A model generated the notes under the pieces. It did not search any database, was not told the origin of the DNA, and was given only the letters and a program-made list of their open reading frames with translations. A stretch of 64,000 nucleotides of DNA, from contig NW_024704757.1 in assembly GCF_018977255.1 (NCBI RefSeq), forward strand, positions 7,688,001 to 7,752,000, given 5' to 3'. This DNA comes from Callorhinchus milii. Lineage: Eukaryota. A program made the translations under genes and the position numbers. This document shows, piece by piece, positions 22,678-34,762 of the stretch. Position 1 is the stretch's first letter, and each line of letters opens with the position of its first letter.

Positions 22678-23005
22678 GCCATCTTGGTAAAGCCATCGTC
22701 CGCAATATATCGAAGGGAGAGTGCGGCCATCTTGGTAAAGGCAGAGTGAGCAATCATGGCGGGGAGGGGGGCGGAAGCCAGTGGCCATCTTGGTAAAGGC
22801 AGAGTGACCAATCATGGCGGGGAGGTGGGGGGCAGTGGCCATCTTGGTAAAGGCAGAGCGAGCAATGCATGGCGGGGAGGGGGGGGGAGCCAGTAGCCAT
22901 CTTGGTAAAGGCAGAGCGAGCAATGCATGGCGAGGCAGGAGGGAGCCAGTGGCCATCTTGGTAAAACCGTGACGGGGGCGGCCACCGTGGTAAAGGCAGT
23001 GCGCG
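22678..23005. promoter_or_regulatory. Bidirectional promoter region for MLST8 and HEXD-like, containing a ~56-bp tandem array of YY1-type motifs
   Basis: GCCATCTTGGTAAA at 22678, 22726, 22784, 22838, 22896, 22952, plus a degenerate copy at 22981, inside a CpG-rich region between divergent genes. Confidence 0.7.
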
Positions 23006-23253
23006 CAATCACACGTTCATCTCGGTACGGTCACTGAAAAACTGGCACGTTAAATAGTTTCACTGGCAACCGGCAAGTCAGCCCATAAACCCGCCACATG
23101 GCAGCCCTCCTGCCCCGGTGTAACAGCTGCACAGGTGCCGCCTGACCTGCTGAGCGTTCCCGGACGTCTGCTCTTTACTGTGAAAGCCGCTGACTTCGCT
23201 GTCACTTTTCTCAGGAGTGAGTGACATCGTTCCCGGTGGGGAGTGCGAGAGCT

Positions 23254-26200
23254 ATGGTGCGGAGACCGTATCTCCAGGTCCTGCGCCTGCTGGTGCTGCT
23301 GATCGCCCTGTTGGTGGGCGCCAGCCTCCTGTACCCATCAGAGTAAGTGGCTTCTCCGTGCGGGAGGCGTTGCGGGGTGTTTGTGCCGCAGTGATGCGCG
23401 AGATGGGGCAGGTTGCGGGGTGCAGCTCACAGAGCACCACACGATAGCATCTGAACCACAGGCTTAAGAGAGGGCAGGATTGCTCCTTTGCTATTTCATC
23501 CACAAACCGCACTGTCAATCCGCTTTATAGCGTATTCTGTGAAGCGCTTTAAGATGTCTCAACGAAGCGGTACCGCTAAAAACGCGAGGATTGTTATTCC
23601 GTTTGATGGGGCTCTGCAACCTGCAATCTGCAGCTGTTGTTATTGTGAAAAGCTTTCAGCTGAATAACCAGTGCAGAGCTGCAGCAGTATAGCCCGATTG
23701 CCAGCGTTGGGGTTTCTGCGTTGAGTACAAGACGAAAAATGCAAAATTACATTGTTAAAGTGGGTTGGGATCAGGGAGGGTGGCTGAAGGCACGGTTGGA
23801 GAGGGCGTCTTGGCACATGCCTTGAAGGAGGCAAGGGAGGGAGTGAAGCCAGGGAATGTGGGATGGAGTTCCTGAGGGTTGGGGCAGAGAGGCTGAAGAC
23901 CCGACCACTGATGGTGGGGCAGGCTGGGCAGGGGACATGGGACAGGCTGGAGCCTGCCGAGTGGAGGGAGTGGACAGTTTGATAAGGGGTTATAATAAAA
24001 TAAACAATAATCCTTGCATTTGATATATTGCCTTATCACGTCTTCGGCACGTCTCAAAACGCTTCACAGAATATACTGTTAAGTGAATTGACTGTATATT
24101 TGTGGATGAAACACGGCAGCCAATTGCACACAACAGTGTCCCCACAAGCAGTCGTGGATTGAGTGACCAAACTATTATTTTTTTTCTTGAGGGATTATTA
24201 TCAGGCGGGTGAAGTAAGGAAACTTGCCCAAGGTTTTACCTGCCAGGAATCAAACCCAGGTCTTTCACTTGTGGGGCTAGTGCTCTAACCACTGAGATAT
24301 AGGACTCCACAGGGTTAGCAGGTTGGAGAGGTAGGAGGGGGCAAGGCCATGGAGAGCCTTGAAGGTGAGGACGAGAACTTTGAATTCTATCCTCTGAGGA
24401 ATGGGCAGCCAGTGGAGCCAGGTGAGGATGGGTGCGATGCATCACGGAGCCTCGTGCGGGAGAGAACACAAGCTGCAGAGTTCTAGATGACCTGCAGCTT
24501 GTGAAGGGAATAGTTGGGAAGGCCGACAAGCAGGGCATTGGCATAGTTGAGCCTGGTTATAGTGAAGACATATGAGGGTTTTGGCGGCCTGAGGGGTGAG
24601 ACAGTGGCGGAGTAGAGCATTGTTGCGGAGGTGGGAGAAGGCAGAGCGGGTCATGGCACAGATGTGGGGGAAGAAAGGACAGTTAAAGGTTGAACAAGAC
24701 GCCTAGGTTCCTGATTGGTTCGGTGATGCTGATGCTGCCGGTGCCTGAGGTGCAGAGGCACTGGCGCAAGCCAATCGAGTATATTTACTGAGCTGATTGA
24801 AGATAAATATTTTAATCTGTGTTTAAGATCAAAGCCAGTGGATGACCCAAGCCACATAGATTTTTGGAAAAAGGCAAAAGACCCAAGGGCCAAGGCAACA
24901 CTGGAGAGCAGGGAAATCACGGGGGAGGCTCGGCACAGAACCACAACAGAACAGACTATCAACAAAGAAAATAGACGACAGCCCAAACAGTACGGAGCCG
25001 CAGGGATGAAAATTGTGCACTTGGACCTTAAAGGAGCTGCTCCAAAACTCTTATATCTGGAGCAGGTGAGGGTATACTGGGTGAGGGGCTCAGAGATGTC
25101 AGTGAGTGAGCACCCTGAGGGAGGGGGTACAGAGAGATGCTGGTAAGTGGTGTTAAATGGTATGTTGCCTTCCTGGTGTGAAGGTTGAAGACTTCACGGA
25201 ACAGGTACAAAACATTCTATGGGCGGAAGGGGACCTTTCAGAAGTCGTAATCCATGTTGGGAGCAATGACATAGGGAAAAAAAGGGCTGAGATCCTACAG
25301 GGAGAGTTTCAGAAGCTAGGAGTAAACTAAAGAGCTGGATCTCAATGGTGGTGATCGCTGGATTACTCCCAGTGTGCAAGCGAGTATAAGAACAGCTGGA
25401 TAAAACCCGTTAATATGTGGCTTGAGAAATGGTGCAGAAAGGAGGACTTTAGGTTCCTGGAACATTGGCTCTAGCCACAATTTTTCAATTTTCCATGGAT
25501 GCCGGGAGGTGCCCAGAGGACTGGAGGTTTGCAAATGTTACTCCTCTGAACAAAAAGGGGAGAAGGATAAACCTGGGAATTACAGGCAGCCTGATGGGGA
25601 AACTTCTAGAGACTATAATCCGGGACAAAATAATTTTCACTTTGAAAAATATGGGTTAATAAAGGACAGCCAACCTGGGTTTGTTAAAGGCAAATCATGT
25701 CTAACAAACCTGGTAGAGTTTTTTAATGAAGTGACGGAGAGGGTGGATGAACGTAGTGCCGTTGATGTAGTTTATATGGAATTTCAAAAGGCGTTTGATA
25801 AAGTGCCACATAATAGACATGTTAATAGAAAAAATTGAAGCCCATGGTATTAAAGGGACAGTGGCAGCATGGATACAGAACTGGCTGGGAGACAGAAAGC
25901 AGAGAGTGGTGGTATTTTTCTGACTGGAGGGAAGTGTGCAGTGGTGTCTCCCAGGGATCAATATTGGGACCACTGCTGTTTTTGATCTATATAAATGACT
26001 GGGAATTGGGTATAGAGAATACAATTTCCAAGTTTGCAGATGATACTAAGCTAGGAAAAGTAGTAAACATGAGATGGACAGTTGCAGACTGCAAGAGGAC
26101 ATAGACAGACTGATAAAATGGATAGCCACATGGCGGATAAAACTGCGAAATTATGCATTTTTGGGAAGAAGATGAGGAGAGGGAATGTAAGCTGATGGTA

Positions 26201-29200
26201 CAATCTTAAAGGGCATAAGAGACCTGGGGCTCCACCTGAGAAAATCTTTGAAGGTGTCAGGACAGGTAGGTAAAGCTGGTTTTTTTAAAAAAACATAGCA
26301 AAGAGAAACTATTTCCACTGGCGGGTGTGTCGATAACCCGAGGGCATTGAGTTAAAATAGATGTTAAAAGAAACAGAAAGGAGGTAGGAGAAATGTTTTC
26401 ACACAGCGAGTTGTTTGGATCTGAAAGGGTGGTGGAAGCCGATTCGATAACAACTTTCAAGAGAGTTGAAAGATATTTGGGGAGGACAAGTTTGCAAGGC
26501 TATGGGGAGAGGGCGGGGGAGTGGGACTAATTTGGACAGCTCCTTCAAAAAGCTGGCACGGATACAATGGGCAGAATGGCTTCCTTCGGTGCTGTATAAT
26601 TCCATAATTCTATGAAATGAAATGCAGTTTGGGTGTAATATTTTTCAGATATTTTCCCTCCTGCACACACTTGGTGTCCATGGTGTTCTGATGGAATACG
26701 AAGACATGTTTCCTTTTGAGGGTGATCTTGAAGTCCTTAAATCCACGTATGCTTACAGGTAAGATCAGGATTCGATTTATATACAGGGAGATTGGGGACG
26801 CCATTATCTTCCAACATGTCACTGCACACACATCAAGATTGGTCACATGAGTGAGAGGAAAATCAGCGAGAGAGGGAGAACACTGTGATACGGTGCTGTT
26901 CTTTATAAGCAATAATTCTGTGGTGTTTTCTCTGCAGTTCTGCTGATATTGAAAAAATCCAGGACTTGGCGGACAGAAACCAGCTGGAGATTATTCCTCT
27001 GGTTCAGACATTTGGACATATGGAAGTGAGCTCAGTGGCTGTTTATCCCTCAGGGTTTATCTCTCCTCCCGTCACCGTGCCGTGCGCCACTGCCGTACGT
27101 CTCTCGGTGTTGAGTGATGTGTGTTTTTCCTCCAGTTTGTGCTGAAACACGACAAATATCTGACTCTACGGGAGGTGGAGAATTATCCCAACAGCCTGAA
27201 CCCGCATCTGCCTGACTCCCTGAAGCTGGTGAAGGAAATGATCAGTCAGGTCCTGGATAAGCATCCCGCCTGTTCTCGGATCCACATTGGTGCGGACGAG
27301 GTTCGTGTTTGCAGGGCGGAGCTGAGGCAATAACTACAGAGCTTTAGTTGTGGGAGTGACAGCTCCTTCATGGTATTATGGTCCTCAATTCAGTAATTTA
27401 TGGTATTGTGTTGCCATGGGGAGATTCCTGTATTTACTGTTGTTAGAGATGTGAGGGGCCCCCGTGCGGTGCTGCAGGACATAGAGGGCTGCCCCCCTCT
27501 CCCTCCTCCCCCCAACCAGGGGAGGGCAGAGGGTGTAATGTTTAATGCCCACTTGCTGAATATTGTATATTCAGGGCTCCGAGTGCAATGCTGTGTGAAG
27601 GCTGTGTTATGTAGTTATATACATGATGTGGTGGTGGTGGAGGATGCTCAGCGAGCGATGTGGTAAAGAGTGTCTCTTCTGTTTACGTTGACAGGTTTAT
27701 TATCTGGGGGAAGGAGTTGAGACAAAGCAGTGGCTGAGCGAGCATGAAGAGGATCGGGGGAAGCTCTTCCTGGACCATGTGATGGCGGTCAGCAGCTACC
27801 TGACCACCAAGTACCCGGGGATTGAGGTCATCATGTGGGACGACATGATGCGGAAAATTAGCAAAGAGACGATCCAGCGTACGTGATCGAGTCCGGTGGC
27901 TGCTGCCAACTGAGTTGGCGCCCCACCCCGCCCGCCAGTCCCACCCCACCAGCCCTGCTCTGTCCACCCATCTACACTGGCTCTCAATCCACCAGGGGAT
28001 TGAATTACAGGTCCTCCTCCCCCATCTCACATCTCCTACTGCTCTGGTCGCTCCCCTCATTCCGCTAACACCTGCTTCACATCCCCTGCCTGACCATCGG
28101 CAGGTGAGCTTTCTGTCACCACTCTCTACAACTCTATCCTGGAGTTTCTCCGTCTTGTCTTTGAAGCCCACCTTAAGACCGTGCTTTTGGTCACCGTCTC
28201 CACCCACCCCACCTGGCTCAGAGTCAGCTGTGTGAAGCTTCCCCTTGATGGAAAAAGCACAATGTAAATTGTTGTTAGTTAAAGGTTCTCACTGTATTTT
28301 CCACAGAGACGGGGATCGCTCAGTACGTGGCTCCCATGGTCTGGTTTTACGCTGCTCAGTTCAGTACTGATTCCGTCGGTAAGAAACAGAAACACTGAGT
28401 CTCAATTTTCTCCATTATTAATATCGTTGCGTGTCTGAGAAATATTTGCAACTGGTAAAAAGAAATAATTTGAATAAACTAATTTTTAAGTTTTACAATA
28501 AATCTTCAATCTTCACGTCAGAGGAGATTCTCAGCAAGTACTTGGAGAGCGGATTCCGCAATGTCTGGTTCGCCAGCGCCTTCAAAGGAGCCTCGGGGGC
28601 AGCTCAGGACCGGACCCCCATTAACCTGCATCTGCAGAACCAGCTCCAATGGCTGAAGGTCATTAAATCTCTGCCCAAGTTTCCGTCACTCCACTTCCAG
28701 GGACTGGCATTAACTGGCTGGCAAAGGTCAGATATGCCTGCTGTTTGCTCGTTTCATTAATATTTAATATGTTTCTGTGATATGGTGCACGTCGCTTTAA
28801 TACATCTGCGTTAACCCCTTTCTCCCACCCCCCCCCCCCCCAAAAGCAGCAGCTTGTTGGTACCTGCTTCTGCCTTCCTCCACCTTTGCAACTTTGCCCA
28901 CCTTCATCAATACCTCCCCTCAGGCCGCTGAGAGCCTCACTCCCTCTGCTCGGCGGGCACTGGCCTGCTCCACATCCCCCACCCAGCCCACCTCACCATT
29001 GGCGGTTGTGCCTACAGTGTTTCTGCCCCTCACCCTCTGGGACTCCATCCCAGAGTCCCTCCACTTTGCCCCTTCCCAGTCCTTCTTCAAGGCCTGTTTC
29101 AATTCCTCCCTGCCCACTTGATTCCAACCCCCAGCTGAGGTGCAAACCCTTCACTGTCCAGCTCCTTGGGACATCCCAACTTGAAAGGCGCGATATAAAT

Positions 29201-32200
29201 GCAATCTGTCATTATATTAGAAGTTATATTTAGATTATTGTGGTTACCAGGTATGAGAGGTTATAGTTAGGTAGATAGACTAGTTACTAGGTATGAGGGG
29301 TGGATAGACTACGTGGCTGGTAACTGATTGCTGTGGTTTCCAGGTACGATCATTACTCTGCACTGTGTGAGTTGCTGCCCGTGGCAATCCCATCACTGGT
29401 GATTTGTGCCCAGACCGTGCGATATGGTGAGTACCACTCTTGCTCTCTTACTTACTTGTTTGTTGGATGTTCTGTGTCTCTCATACCTGTGTACTTGGAC
29501 CCTTAGGCTCCTTCAGCACTGAGGCCAAAACCACATCACTGCAAACTCTAGGATTTAAGGATATTGACCTGGAAAAAAATGTCAGGTTTGTTATTCTCAG
29601 CTTTGCTATTTACTGTTGTGGGAGGGAGAGGGGCTTGTGCGATGTTCCTCAGGGCTCTGTCCTGGGTCCCCTCCTCTTCAATATCTATATGCTCCCTCTT
29701 GGTGACATCATCCGCAGACATGGGGGCAACTTCCACATGTATGCAGATGACACCCAACTCTACCTCTCTGCCTCCACCCTTGACTCCAGGACCACTGCTG
29801 TGCTGACAGAATGTCTGTCAGACATCAAGTCCTGGATGAGAGCTAACTTTCTTCAGTTGAACGTCAACAAGATTGAGGCTCTCCTGATTGGCTCCCGTCA
29901 GTGCCTCCTCACCTCAGGCACTGAGAGCATCACCATCCATGGTGGCACACTCCACCTTGCTAAGCCATCCGGAACCTTGGGATCTTGTTTGACCCTCAAC
30001 TAGTCTTTCTACCCGACATCCGTGCCATGACCCGCTCTGCCTTCCCCCAGCTCCGCAACGTCGCCTGGCCCCGACACTGTCTCACACCGCAGGCCACCGA
30101 ATGCCTTACACACACCTTCATTACATCGAGGCTCGACTATGCAAACTCACTGCTTGTCGGCCTCCCCACTCCTCCCTCCACAGACTGCAGATCATCAGAA
30201 CTCTGCAGCCCGTGTCCTCTCCCGCACTAGGCTCCGTGACCCTATGACCCCATCTTTGCCCAACTTCACCGGCTTCCCATCACACAGAGGATACAGTTCA
30301 AGATTCTGGTCCTCACCTTCAAAGCCCTCCATGGTCTTGCTCCCCCCCACCTCTCCAACTTCCTAACCCCCACCATCCTATTCGCTCCCTCCGCTCAGTG
30401 GGCTCCGGCCTGTGTAATGTTCCCCCGCCTTGCTCGCCCACTATCGGCGGGCGGACCTTCCGCCACTCTGCACCCACCCTCTGGAACTCCATCCCATGGT
30501 CCCTCCGTATCGACCCCTCCCTCGCCACCTTCAAGATCCACATCAAGACCCTCCTCTTCGACCGTGCTTTTGACCTCCCTACTTCCCCCCCCCCACCCCT
30601 GCCCTCCACCATCCCCTACCCGGACCCCCAGCTCGGGTCCGTAACTGTCTGTCCAGAGCCTTGGGATGTCCTCCCGATGTGAAAGGCTCTTTACAAATGT
30701 AATTTTGTTGTTGTTGTTGTTGTGTGGTGGGATGCATGTGGTGGTATGCGCGTGCGTGTGTGTGGTGGGGGTGCACGTGTGTGTGTGTGGTGGGAGTGCA
30801 CGTGTGTGTGTGTGGTGGGAGTGCACGTGTGTGTGTGTGGTGGGGGTGCGTGTGTGTGTGTGGTGGGGGTGATTGTGTTGTTGTAGTTGGATTACTTTGT
30901 TTGGAGCCAGGTGTGAATTACTGTACCTGGTGCTAACTTTGCCTTTTCACCCTCGGCAGCGAAGGAACCGGGTCGTTTGCAGGAGCTGAAATTTACGAAA
31001 TGGTTTGTCATATTCATGACAATCTAAAATCTGAAATAACCAATGTTCTACAGGACAACAGGTTAGTCAGTCACACGCAAACTACACAAACTTTTTTGTC
31101 AATTGTTTCCCCTCCTCTCGGGCTCGCACCTGACAGAAACGTTTTCTTGTTGAAATTCACTTGTAATACACTGGCACAATTGAATCGCACCCATAATTTA
31201 AAGGTTCTTATGGGAGGATGAGCTCCTGGCTGCAGCTCTGCTCTCAGCCCTCTGTTGCAGGATCTGCTGTCACACAGAGGAAGGGGAGACACTGGAATCA
31301 CTTGAGCCCCTGGTCACGAGGCTCAGGCTGAGTTTCCCCTGTCAGCGAGGCCATCCAGTCAACTTGACCTGCTCAGGTGATGGTGAAGTCATGGTTCAGG
31401 TCCACATCGTCCTGTGACAATTTGGGGTCTAGAGAGTTTGGGGGGGAAGGGGCTGGTCTGCGGGGACAACCCTTGTGCACAAAGTGGGACGTTTGGGTGT
31501 AATTGGGGTAATGGGGGTGAGCAGCCTAACCTCGCTCAGCAATTTAAAAGTGACAGCTCAGAACGGGCTCACCAGGAAACCAATCACATGCTTAACACAC
31601 TTGACAGTTTGTTGGAAACATTTAGTTATTTCACATTGATAAAGTAAAATCAAAAGTTTGGAATTCTCACCCAGATGTGCCTTGGTCTGTTTCCATTTAC
31701 AGTTTGAGGTGATTAGTGACTGAAAATGACAAGCCAGACTTGTTCTCAGACTTATTAATTGCTCTGGTATAAAATAGAGCAGAATTTTAGGCAACCAACA
31801 GTTGCTGAATTGGTGTAAACAAAGTTTTTTTTTCCCTGATGCTTTGAATGTGTTTTCTCCAGTGATATCAAAGGCTGGTTCACTAACTATCACAGGAAAT
31901 ACCACTTTGCAAACCCACGAAACCTGGAGCGATTTGGAAATAAAGTATTGAAGTAAGTGGGTCACAATCTGTTCGAGAAATTGAAGGCGATTTCCCCCAA
32001 AACAGTCACTACAGTAAGCACTTTGAGACGTCTTGAAGATGTGATAAGGCGCCAAATCAAATGCAAGCATTATTATTATTATTTACCTTTTTGGGCAGCC
32101 AACCAAATACATTTTTTTTGATTGAATATTTCTTGATTGATGGCCACGCCGTAAATATCGTTGCGGGAAACAAAATATTGGTGTAACACTGACTGATCTA

Positions 32201-32562
32201 AACTGGTGTGAATGTTCGGTGGACCACCAGTGTTTACAATCTTATCATGTGCAGAGGTGGGAGGAGGTTAGATAATATAAGGTATGAGATGCTCCCCACG
32301 AGACGGGTGCTTTATAAATGCAAGTTTTTTGTTGTATATCAAATGTAAGGATTATTATTATAAACATTGCCTCTCCAGGGTTCACCAGAAGTGGGAAGAA
32401 TACCTGGCAAAACTGCGCTTACAAATGGAAAACATTTACTTCCCTGACACAGTGGAGGAGTGGATGGAGGAGAATGTGAACCTGTATATGGATGCGCTAC
32501 GAGTGTTTGTGGAGGACTACAAGAAGATCGTGCAGCTCCAAGCTAAGCCCAAGCACAAATAG
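23254..32562 (+). CDS. Hexosaminidase D-like GH20 glycosidase with N-terminal signal anchor, 13 exons, about 562 aa
   Basis: Exons 23254-23342, 24828-25065, 26649-26758, 26938-27025, 27136-27300, 27695-27878, 28307-28378, 28522-28726, 29344-29426, 29507-29585, 30960-31061, 31863-31952, 32379-32562, totalling 1689 nt and phase-consistent. HEXD-family motifs [30 protein letters not shown], catalytic [40 protein letters not shown]. Confidence 0.92.
24005..24310 (-). mobile_element. tRNA-derived SINE, same family
   Basis: Same head, core and tail. Further copies or fragments at about 655-880, 1143-1250, 10725-10885, 18330-18560 with 19040-19168, 20848-21120, 32005-32085(+), 63700-63930(+). Confidence 0.85.
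24310..24720 (-). mobile_element. L2-type LINE fragment
   Basis: [11 protein letters not shown]...[10 protein letters not shown]; homologous to 30020-30370. Confidence 0.75.
25290..26610 (+). mobile_element. CR1-type LINE 3' fragment (degenerate reverse transcriptase plus 3' UTR)
   Basis: Broken RT peptides [57 protein letters not shown], followed by a GAATGGCTTCCTTCGGTGCTGTA...TTCTAT tail. Confidence 0.9.
29638..30722 (+). mobile_element. L2-type LINE 3' fragment
   Basis: [55 protein letters not shown], and a (TTG)n tail at 30705-30722. Confidence 0.9.
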
Positions 32563-32867
32563 CAGTGAGTGGAGCTGTGAGAGCACAAATCTCAGGGAAT
32601 TAGTATTTCTGGAGTGGAGCTGAATGATCAGGATTGAACAAGCAATTTGCGTGTAATTTGGTGATGGGTCGGACAGACATTCTCTTTCTCTCAATTTCCT
32701 GTCTCGAGTTTCTGTTCCTAATTGTGGTTCCAATTCAAATGGTTAAACCGTGGTCTCACTGCCCTCACTGCCCATTGGCGAAATCTGATAATCTCTGCAA
32801 ACACAGATCTGAACAAGGATTTATTCCCTTTTTTATGTTAAAGATAATCAGCGTTTGTGACTTGGGG

Positions 32868-33260
32868 CTGTGTGGGTGTGAGCAGCAGTGTGTCAGGGTC
32901 ACTGTGTGGGTGTGAGCAGCAGTGTGTCAGGGTCACTGTGTGGGTGTGAGCAGCAGTGTGTCAGGGTCACTGTGTGGGTGTGAGCAGCAGTGTGTCAGGG
33001 TCACTGTGTGGGTGTGAGCAGCAGTGTGTCAGGGTCACTGTGTGGGTGTGAGCAGCAGTGTGTCAGGGTCACTGTGTGGGTGTGAGCAGCAGTGTGTCAG
33101 GGTCACTGTGTGGGTGTGAGCAGCAGTGTGTCAGGGTCACTGTGTGGGTGTGAGCAGCAGTGTGTCAGGGTCACTGTGTGGGTGTGAGCAGCAGTGTGTC
33201 AGGGTCACTGTGTGGGTGTGAGCAGCAGTGTGTCAGGGTCACTGTGTGGGTGTGTCAGGG
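32868..33260. repeat. 34-bp minisatellite (AGCAGCAGTGTGTCAGGGTCACTGTGTGGGTGTG), about 11 copies
   Basis: Near-perfect tandem copies downstream of the HEXD-like stop. Confidence 0.95.
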
Positions 33261-33583: not shown

Positions 33584-34762
33584 ATGCGCGTTCCCGCGCT
33601 GTTGGGCGCCCTGGCTGTGTTGAGCGCGCTCCTGTACCGGTTGCTGAGGCGGCGGGAGCGGGAGCGCGCTCAGGTGCTGTTCTTCCCGGTGGAGCCGGTG
33701 ATGTGCGCGCGGCCGCTGTGTGCTCGGGGCCGCGGCCCATGTGAGTGCGGTCTGTGGCAGCGGGAGCGCGCGGCGTGCCGCCTGTGCGCGCTCCTCCTCA
33801 CCGCCCAGCGCACGCTCGACGTCTGCGTCTTCACCATCTCCAGCCGCGAGCTCGCGCACGCGGTGCTCGTCCTCCACCGCCGCGGCGTCCGCGTTCGCGT
33901 CATCACCGACTCCGGTCACATGGCGCTGGCCGCCTCCCAGGTCGGCAACTTCCGGAGAGCAGGTACCCGCACCAGGGGGACACCTGCACCTGCACCAGGG
34001 GGACACCTGCACCAGGGGGACACCTGCACCCGCACCAGGAAGACGCCTGCACCCGCACCAGGGGCACACCTGCACCAGGGGCACACCTGCACCAGGGGGA
34101 CACCCTCACCAGGGGCACACCTGCACCAGGGGGACACCCGCACCAGGGGGACACCTGCACCCACACCAGGGACACACCTGCACCCACACCAGCGGCACAC
34201 CTGCACCAGGGGGACACCCACACCAGGGGCACACCCGCACCAGGGGGACACCCACACCAGGGGCACACCCGCACCAGGGGCACACACGCACCCACACCAG
34301 GGGCACACGCGCACCCACACCAGGGGCACACCCGCACCAGGGGCACACCTGCACCCACACCAGGGGCACATCTGCACCAGGGGTCACCGACACTGGAACA
34401 CTGGTCTCTCCGCAACAAATACACAGTCTTTGTGCAGTAAATCGCTAATTTACATTACTTCGCACAGTTTTATTTTCCCGTGAAATTCATTGGAGATGAT
34501 TTATGAATCCGTTGTTTCACCACCAGGAATAGAAGTTCGACACGACCAAGACACAAACTACATGCACCACAAATTCGCAATCGTTGATGGATCAATCCTT
34601 CTGAACGGATCGCTCAACTGGAGCTCCCAAGCCATTTACGGAAACAAAGAAAATGTCATCGTTGTAAAACTTCCCGATATTGTGAATCCGTTTGTGGAAG
34701 AATTTGAAAGTCTTTGGAATGAATATGATCCGTCAAAGTTCATCTTTTCTCCACAAAAGTAA
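33584..34762 (+). CDS. PLD6: Mitochondrial cardiolipin hydrolase / piRNA endonuclease zucchini (PLD6), 2 exons, about 204 aa
   Basis: Exons 33584-33962 and 34527-34762. N-terminal hydrophobic anchor, VLFFP, TLDVCVFTISS, RGVRVRVITD, a single HKD motif (MHHKFAIVD), GSLNWS, NKEN. Tail-to-tail with MPRIP as in human. Confidence 0.95.
33965..34385. repeat. Variable CACCTGCACCAGGGG(G) tandem repeat filling most of PLD6 intron 1
   Basis: Repeated 16-23-bp units starting right after the donor. Confidence 0.9.

What the first reader, a model, noticed from the sequence alone, without database searches (positions are those of the whole stretch)
23254..25065. HEXD-like hexosaminidase with a type II membrane anchor and stem
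Seen: exon 23254-23342 encodes [29 protein letters not shown] (short basic tail plus hydrophobic stretch). It splices in phase to a ~60-aa hydrophilic stem, then a complete GH20 domain with an intact HIGADEV Asp-Glu pair. Known: human HEXD (17q25) begins about 8 residues before RLVHLDLKG and is nucleocytoplasmic. Inference: this is a distinct, secretory-pathway (Golgi-like) paralogue that may trim GalNAc/GlcNAc from glycans, and it may be absent from mammals. An internal Met (GMKIVHLDL) sits where the human protein core begins, so a soluble isoform is also possible.
Basis: partly seen in the sequence, partly recalled or inferred. Interest (0 to 1): 0.75.

Follow-up and report, generated by a model that had tools for sequence, protein, structure and literature searches.

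The report
Membrane-anchored HEXD sister missing in mammals
Sharks, bony fish, amphibians, reptiles and birds carry a second copy of the sugar-trimming enzyme HEXD, spliced here in the elephant shark, whose conserved hydrophobic N-terminus is predicted to anchor it in the secretory pathway, where it likely clips GalNAc from glycans, a step mammals appear to have lost.

Summary
Exon 23254-23342 splices in frame to 24828, and 13 GT-AG exons give a 562-aa GH20 subfamily-1 hexosaminidase identical to a database protein of Callorhinchus milii. All 12 joints appear in contigs of 4 of 4 RNA-like runs, the first at the same or nearly the same depth as later ones. It is not the HEXD orthologue: a second, anchorless copy on another contig, near UTS2R, groups with mammalian HEXD (100/98), while this gene heads a separate vertebrate clade (100/100). 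The basic tail, hydrophobic segment and stem occur in 109 of 120 top homologues. No mammal is named in two top-120 lists. Catalytic and substrate-binding residues match Trichuris HEX-2. Best reading: a type II, likely Golgi, GalNAc-preferring glycan trimmer like nematode HEX-2/HEX-4. Location, anchor versus cleaved signal, and substrate are untested; most orthologues have only 12 uncharged residues in the segment. A soluble form from the internal Met found no support. Databases label it 'hexosaminidase D-like'; nine literature searches found no description of it.

The parts
23254..23342 (+). Coding exon 1: start ATG (context GCTATGG), basic tail (aa 1-11) and hydrophobic segment L12-Y27 (23287-23334)
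   Evidence: sequence; hydropathy; joint to 24828 in 4 of 4 runs
24828..25065 (+). Exon 2: stem (aa 30-89, with conserved FW at 42-43), internal Met90 (ATG 25006) and first barrel strand HLDLKG with K98
26649..26758 (+). Exon 3 (aa 110-146), TIM barrel
26938..27025 (+). Exon 4 (aa 146-175)
27136..27300 (+). Exon 5 (aa 176-230): HIGADE; catalytic D229/E230 at 27295-27300
27695..27878 (+). Exon 6 (aa 231-292), W278
28307..28378 (+). Exon 7 (aa 292-316), W304/Y306/A307
28522..28726 (+). Exon 8 (aa 316-384), G338, W382
29344..29426 (+). Exon 9 (aa 384-412), Y385, C392, C405
29507..29585 (+). Exon 10 (aa 412-438), the only N-glycosylation sequon (N436)
30960..31061 (+). Exon 11 (aa 438-472), start of the C-terminal helical bundle
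31863..31952 (+). Exon 12 (aa 472-502)
32379..32562 (+). Exon 13 (aa 502-562) and stop codon; RNA-like contigs continue to about 32897
23098..23145 (+). Possible 15-codon upstream ORF, in frame with the main ORF but stopping before it; inside one RNA-like contig (22974-23241)
   Evidence: translation untested

Best explanation
This is a spliced vertebrate paralogue of HEXD, a GH20 subfamily-1 beta-hexosaminidase with an intact active site, predicted to be a type II membrane protein that likely sits in the Golgi and likely removes terminal GalNAc from glycans in transit. Shown: the gene model, its splicing in RNA-like contigs, a separate anchorless HEXD copy in the same genome, two sister vertebrate clades, conservation of tail, hydrophobic segment and stem from sharks to birds, and the catalytic residues. 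From family knowledge: retaining, substrate-assisted hydrolysis, with D229 polarising the 2-acetamido group and E230 as acid/base. Inferred: residues 1-11 stay in the cytosol, about 12-27 span the membrane, and the disordered stem holds the TIM barrel and helical bundle in the lumen, where it would trim LacdiNAc GalNAc and perhaps lower-arm GlcNAc as nematode HEX-2 and HEX-4 do. Also inferred: the pair arose in an early vertebrate block duplication, and mammals kept only the anchorless copy.
For: Model equals P0001; 12 of 12 joints in 4 of 4 runs. IQ-TREE, 41 rows: 15 anchored vertebrate rows 100/100; 7 HEXD rows, including the contig-C20 copy and three mammals, 100/98; both together 100/99 to the exclusion of 19 other rows. 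Window protein held with HEXD rejected, p-AU 1.5e-47. The ten internal coding exons shared with the C20 copy match in length exactly (7) or within 3 nt (3). C20 copy lies about 27 kb from a UTS2R gene (E 3e-72); human order is UTS2R, OGFOD3, HEXD (PMC10334611 passages). The USP gene near the C20 copy has its best paralogue on C16, about 640 kb from this gene. Hydrophobic segment in 109 of 120 homologues; column conservation 0.69 there, 0.36 in the stem, 0.76 in the barrel. Net charge +3 before and -3 after the segment in P0001; more positive before than after in 69 of 109 rows, equal in 26. AlphaFold gives one helix 4-26, a disordered stem and a barrel; best fold match is T. suis HEX-2 8QK1, E 3.6e-37, TM 0.87. 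K98, D229, E230, W278, W304, Y306, A307, G338, W382, Y385 match HEX-2's K66, D198, E199, W246, W272, Y274, A275, G305, W348, Y351. HEX-2 has cytoplasmic, transmembrane and stem regions and removes LacdiNAc GalNAc and lower-arm GlcNAc; C. elegans HEX-4 is reported to act in the Golgi (10.1101/2023.11.15.567194).
Against: In 104 of 109 anchored orthologues the uncharged run is only 12 residues and ends at a Lys in 102; 102 of 109 have a site compatible with a lax (-3,-1) signal-peptidase rule, so cleavage is possible. In 14 of 109 rows the charge bias is reversed. Sequons are scarce (mean 0.44 against 2.05 expected, none in 76 of 109), so glycosylation gives no positive sign of a lumenal domain. 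Active-site residues are equally conserved in nucleocytoplasmic HEXD, so they say nothing about glycan-processing specificity. 5 of 120 homologues are database isoforms with an N-terminal extension but no anchor. Mammalian absence rests on ranked lists, not genomes. The second paralogon test (UTS2R query) found no C16 paralogue at E 1e-30. No localisation or activity data exist for any member.
Confidence: 0.55

Rival explanations
1. The N-terminal segment is a cleaved signal peptide, or an anchor that is efficiently shed, so the enzyme is a secreted neutral-pH GalNAc-ase acting outside the cell.
For: Uncharged run of only 12 residues in 104 of 109 orthologues; small residues allowing (-3,-1) cleavage in 102 of 109 under a lax rule; stems of type II enzymes are protease-prone (HEX-2 stem).
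Against: The segment is nearly as conserved as the barrel (0.69 vs 0.76), which is unusual for a discarded signal peptide (general knowledge). Aromatic or apolar residues follow the Lys. A 54-100 residue stem follows. 65 of 131 mostly unnamed, presumed invertebrate representatives have the same anchor-plus-stem layout.
Confidence: 0.23
2. It is membrane-anchored with a lumenal or extracellular catalytic domain, but works at the cell surface, ER or endosome, or on glycolipid, O-linked or glycosaminoglycan GalNAc rather than as an N-glycan processing step.
For: Nothing tested here distinguishes compartments or natural substrates; subfamily-1 enzymes share GalNAc preference on aryl substrates but differ on glycans.
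Against: A short basic tail, short hydrophobic segment and stem is the usual Golgi enzyme layout (general knowledge); the characterised anchored relatives are N-glycan processing enzymes.
Confidence: 0.17
3. The protein is anchored with its catalytic domain facing the cytosol, a tethered version of nucleocytoplasmic HEXD.
For: Few sequons; short hydrophobic run; the sister clade is reported nucleocytoplasmic.
Against: Positive-inside bias favours a cytosolic N-terminus (+3/-3 in P0001; 69 of 109 rows); a Cys at column 438 is in 146 of 162 orthologue rows but 2 of 8 HEXD rows, as might be expected for a lumenal disulfide (inference; this shark has Ser there).
Confidence: 0.04
4. The gene is the 1:1 HEXD orthologue, made as a soluble protein from Met90.
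For: Met90 sits at the start of the core and has a G at -3.
Against: A separate anchorless copy groups with mammalian HEXD and sits near UTS2R; AU p 1.5e-47; the first ATG has G at -3 and +4 and an out-of-frame ATG at 24842 lies between; the accessions listed for P0001 all give the full 562-aa protein.
Confidence: 0.01

Closest known systems
Trichuris suis HEX-2 (PDB 8QK1) and C. elegans HEX-2/-3/-4/-5, GH20 subfamily 1
   Same: Cytoplasmic tail, transmembrane segment and stem before the catalytic domain; TIM barrel plus helical bundle (TM 0.87); all listed substrate-contact residues; phmmer E 1.9e-75.
   Different: About 31% identity; not in one clade with protostome anchored enzymes (p-AU 0.00024); shorter, Lys-interrupted hydrophobic segment; vertebrate; never assayed.
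Mammalian HEXD (HEXDC), nucleocytoplasmic hexosaminidase D
   Same: Sister clade; 41-48% identity to named mammalian HEXD proteins; same active site; same internal exon layout as the shark's own HEXD copy.
   Different: HEXD starts about 8-25 residues before the barrel with no anchor; different locus (near UTS2R, against MLST8 and PLD6 here); this paralogue is not found among mammalian proteins in the lists examined.
Insect FDL (fused lobes) Golgi hexosaminidase
   Same: Functional analogue: a secretory-pathway hexosaminidase that processes N-glycans (PMC4339880 passages).
   Different: GH20 subfamily 2 and GlcNAc-specific; not a close sequence relative.
Streptococcus GH20C / GcnA
   Same: Next-best fold matches (E about 1e-15) and weak sequence matches.
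   Different: Bacterial, about 15% identity, no anchor-stem layout.

Membership tests
GH20 beta-N-acetylhexosaminidase | PF00728 domain above the curated cut-off | tested here: met
   37.1 bits vs 22.3
GH20 beta-N-acetylhexosaminidase | H/N-x-G-x-D-E motif with catalytic Asp-Glu | tested here: met
   H225-I-G-A-D229-E230; D in 158 and E in 161 of 162 orthologue rows, the rest gaps
GH20 subfamily 1 (clade B) | Active site near the N-terminus, barrel followed by a helical bundle, closest to HEX-2/HEXD | tested here: met
GH20 subfamily 1 (clade B) | Preference for GalNAc over GlcNAc aryl substrates, near-neutral pH optimum | not testable with these tools
   needs enzyme assay; residues match HEX-2
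HEXD orthologues | Groups with mammalian HEXD in the tree | tested here: not met
   separate clade; AU p 1.5e-47; the C20 copy groups with HEXD instead
HEXD orthologues | UTS2R-OGFOD3-HEXD neighbourhood | tested here: not met
   window neighbours are MLST8 and PLD6; the C20 copy is near UTS2R, with OGFOD3 between them named from recalled motifs only (searches gave no firm hit)
HEXD orthologues | No membrane anchor | tested here: not met
   hydrophobic exon 1 is spliced at full depth
Type II Golgi glycan-processing hexosaminidases (HEX-2/HEX-4-like) | Basic tail, hydrophobic segment, stem, C-terminal catalytic domain | tested here: met
   109 of 120 homologues
Type II Golgi glycan-processing hexosaminidases (HEX-2/HEX-4-like) | Anchor retained, not cleaved | tested here: inconclusive
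   conservation favours retention; 12-residue run and (-3,-1) sites allow cleavage; no signal-peptide predictor on hand
Type II Golgi glycan-processing hexosaminidases (HEX-2/HEX-4-like) | Golgi residence and effect on the N-glycome | not testable with these tools
   needs localisation and knockout glycomics

The most novel reading that the evidence does not exclude
Jawed vertebrates other than mammals run an invertebrate-style Golgi hexosaminidase step that edits LacdiNAc and possibly lower-arm GlcNAc on secreted glycoproteins; mammals lost it and kept only the de-anchored sister, HEXD, whose unexplained GalNAc-ase activity is the relic of a glycan-processing enzyme.
Probability: 0.3. Interest if true: 0.75.

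Novelty: new member of a known kind. Interest (0 to 1): 0.5.

Why it matters
Golgi hexosaminidase trimming is treated as an invertebrate trait: mammalian hexosaminidases are described as four genes, none in the Golgi. A conserved anchored subfamily-1 enzyme from sharks to birds would put such a step in vertebrates, with consequences for fish, frog and chicken glycomes, including glycoproteins made in eggs or avian cells. It also gives a handle on HEXD, whose role is called elusive: its sister can be knocked out in fish, frog or chicken cells. Several bird, frog and lizard records of this clade are named plain 'hexosaminidase D' or 'HEXDC', so orthology assignments may be confused. The score is moderate because the fold, chemistry and layout are known from nematodes, the protein is already in databases, and function is untested.

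Tried and rejected
Rejected: 1:1 HEXD orthology. Rejected under LG+G4: an ancient split putting vertebrate anchored enzymes with protostome anchored ones (p-AU 0.00024). Whether the anchor or its absence is ancestral is unresolved: the label changes 5 times on the tree and outgroups are mixed. The first FastTree had the C20 model out of frame, so its position there is meaningless; 31 partial representatives were dropped from that tree; the corrected model is. The anchor count of 110 included one mis-scored partial row; 109 is correct. No run was on record as RNA; X1-X4 are RNA guesses held as contigs, so strand, level and start sites cannot be read. The joint table omitted 146 weaker rows, so minor alternative first exons are not excluded, and no DNA-run control was laid. 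P0122, a 536-aa database model without exon 1, has no start Met and was not taken as an isoform. A scan of 17 kb upstream of the C20 copy gave four hydrophobic ORF starts, none resembling the anchor; an unseen anchor exon there is not strictly excluded. OGFOD3 naming: no Pfam hit and only a sub-0.9 Atlas lead. UTS2R paralogue search on C16: none at E 1e-30. The Atlas listed arthropod and nematode clusters and gave no vertebrate range. Sequon scarcity is ambiguous and the rows are related. Earlier scan notes: nothing. The primary HEX-4 paper was not held.

Full report
Gene and observation. The window is G000:C16:7688001-7752000. From the sequence I built a 13-exon model, 23254-32562, with AG/GT at all 12 introns; it translates exactly to P0001, 562 aa, which databases name 'beta-N-acetylhexosaminidase' or 'hexosaminidase D-like' of Callorhinchus milii. 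Exon 1 gives a basic tail and a hydrophobic segment (best 19-residue mean 2.52), exon 2 a 60-aa stem and the first barrel strand, exon 5 the HIGADE motif. All 12 joints appear in contigs of 4 of 4 runs laid (4 of 14 listed; 2 studies; RNA by guess only). The 23342>24828 joint has depth 107/199/73/60 against 110/177/73/59 downstream, and one 2073-nt contig runs from 23112 to 32803. The hydrophobic exon therefore belongs to the main transcript.

A paralogue, not HEXD. The genome has two loci matching P0001, on C16 and C20. The C20 model (494 aa) begins 25 residues before HLDLKG with no hydrophobic segment, is 47% identical to P0001 and 50-57% to named mammalian HEXD proteins, and shares internal exon lengths with the window gene. 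In an IQ-TREE of 41 chosen rows (LG+G4, 472 columns) the C20 copy, gundi, fruit-bat and macaque HEXD, a bird and two fish form one clade (100/98); the window protein with 14 shark, ray, fish, coelacanth, amphibian, reptile and bird proteins forms another (100/100); together they exclude the 19 other rows (100/99). Holding the window protein with HEXD is rejected (p-AU 1.5e-47) (names). Holding the anchored vertebrate clade with protostome anchored enzymes is also rejected (p-AU 0.00024). The C20 copy lies near UTS2R, as human HEXD does (UTS2R, OGFOD3, HEXD; passages of PMC10334611); the intervening gene is OGFOD3 by recalled motifs only. The window gene lies between MLST8 and PLD6. A USP gene near the C20 copy has its best paralogue on C16, about 640 kb from the window gene, consistent with a duplicated block; a UTS2R query found no such partner. 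Origin in the vertebrate whole-genome duplications is inference.

Range. With the shark query, 120 of 2141 hits were listed; 110 are named and none is a mammal. With a turtle query, 120 of 2035 were listed; 118 are named, none is a mammal, and the list reaches frogs and sharks, although partial bird proteins crowd it. A mammalian orthologue should outrank those unless much diverged. The three mammalian proteins among 20 representatives looked up all fall in the HEXD clade. The literature counts four mammalian beta-hexosaminidase genes. Loss in mammals is therefore likely, but no mammalian genome was searched.

The anchor. 109 of the 120 proteins have the hydrophobic segment, followed by 54-100 residues before the core; 6 are too short at the N-terminus to tell and 5 have an extension without it. 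Column conservation is 0.47 in the tail, 0.69 in the segment, 0.36 in the stem (with a near-invariant FW pair) and 0.76 in the barrel. Charge is more positive before the segment in 69 of 109, equal in 26 and reversed in 14; P0001 is +3/-3. AlphaFold on a 55-row alignment gives helix 4-26, disorder at 29-72 and a confident barrel plus bundle (mean pLDDT 89.2). Against a simple anchor: the uncharged run is 12 residues in 104 of 109 and ends at Lys in 102, 102 of 109 allow signal-peptidase cleavage under a lax rule, and sequons are scarce. I put a retained anchor at roughly 70-75%.

Internal Met. M90 corresponds to an internal Met of mammalian HEXD, not its start, and is conserved in 147 of 162 rows. 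The first ATG has a strong context and an out-of-frame ATG intervenes. No soluble isoform is supported in this species; anchorless database isoforms exist in a few others.

Mechanism. The fold matches T. suis HEX-2 best (E 3.6e-37, TM 0.87), and every substrate-contact residue named for HEX-2 has an identical counterpart. That enzyme has cytoplasmic, transmembrane and stem regions, prefers GalNAc, works at pH 6-7 and removes LacdiNAc GalNAc and lower-arm GlcNAc; C. elegans HEX-4 is described as acting in the Golgi. Substrate-assisted catalysis by D229/E230 follows from family knowledge. Golgi location and natural substrate are inferred by analogy; the same residues are conserved in nucleocytoplasmic HEXD, so they do not prove a processing role.

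What is known. Papers seen: bioRxiv 10.1101/2023.11.15.567194, parts 1-3 of 4; PMC11308363 passages, in which 'vertebrate' occurs 0 times; PMC2492878 passages and section 9, which call the roles of vertebrate clade-B sequences obscure; PMC4339880 passages, stating that mammalian hexosaminidases are not in the Golgi; PMC7614267 passages; PMC10334611 passages. Nine searches (listings only) showed no paper on a vertebrate anchored paralogue; 'hexosaminidase D-like' is in 3 papers, the 2 listed being on arthropods. Subscription journals are largely missing, and figures and supplements of the phylogeny papers, which may contain these sequences, were not seen.

Verdict. A real, conserved, apparently undescribed vertebrate orthogroup of a known enzyme kind. 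The evolutionary part is firm; the cell-biological part is a testable inference. Interest 0.5.

Noticed in passing
window 22725-22965: A 58-bp unit repeated 4.3 times in the stretch between the head-to-head MLST8 and hexosaminidase genes; each unit carries GCCATCTTGG, resembling a YY1 site (motif recalled), so it may be a multimerised bidirectional promoter element.
   Followed up: no
window 4600-62000: Gene order appears to be E4F1-like (-), PGP-like (+), BRICD5-like (+), MLST8 (-), this gene (+), PLD6 (+), MPRIP-like (-). MLST8 and PLD6 are named, the rest from ORF text by recall. In human the left block is on 16p13.3 and the right on 17p11.2 (recalled), so the gene sits at the junction of two blocks that are apart in human, which may bear on its loss.
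   Followed up: partly
window 24863-24868 (F42-W43): An FW pair is about 99% conserved among anchored orthologues in the middle of an otherwise variable, disordered stem; a possible interaction or cleavage motif.
   Followed up: no
window 29585-30961 (codon 438): Most orthologues have Cys at this column (146 of 162) but this shark has Ser, and it has a Cys at 454 that the others mostly lack.
   Followed up: no
window 32868-33254 and 33965-34378: A perfect 34-bp array (11.4 copies) between this gene and PLD6, and a 17-bp-based array in the PLD6 intron that keeps a long open frame running on from exon 1.
   Followed up: no
window 23237: Contigs of two runs from two studies show an extra G here in the 5' UTR relative to the assembly.
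   Followed up: no
L003-L010 (G000:C20:9930001-9990000): Downstream of the shark HEXD copy lie a WD40 gene and a USP gene rather than CYBC1 and NARF as in human, so synteny is kept on one side only.
   Followed up: partly
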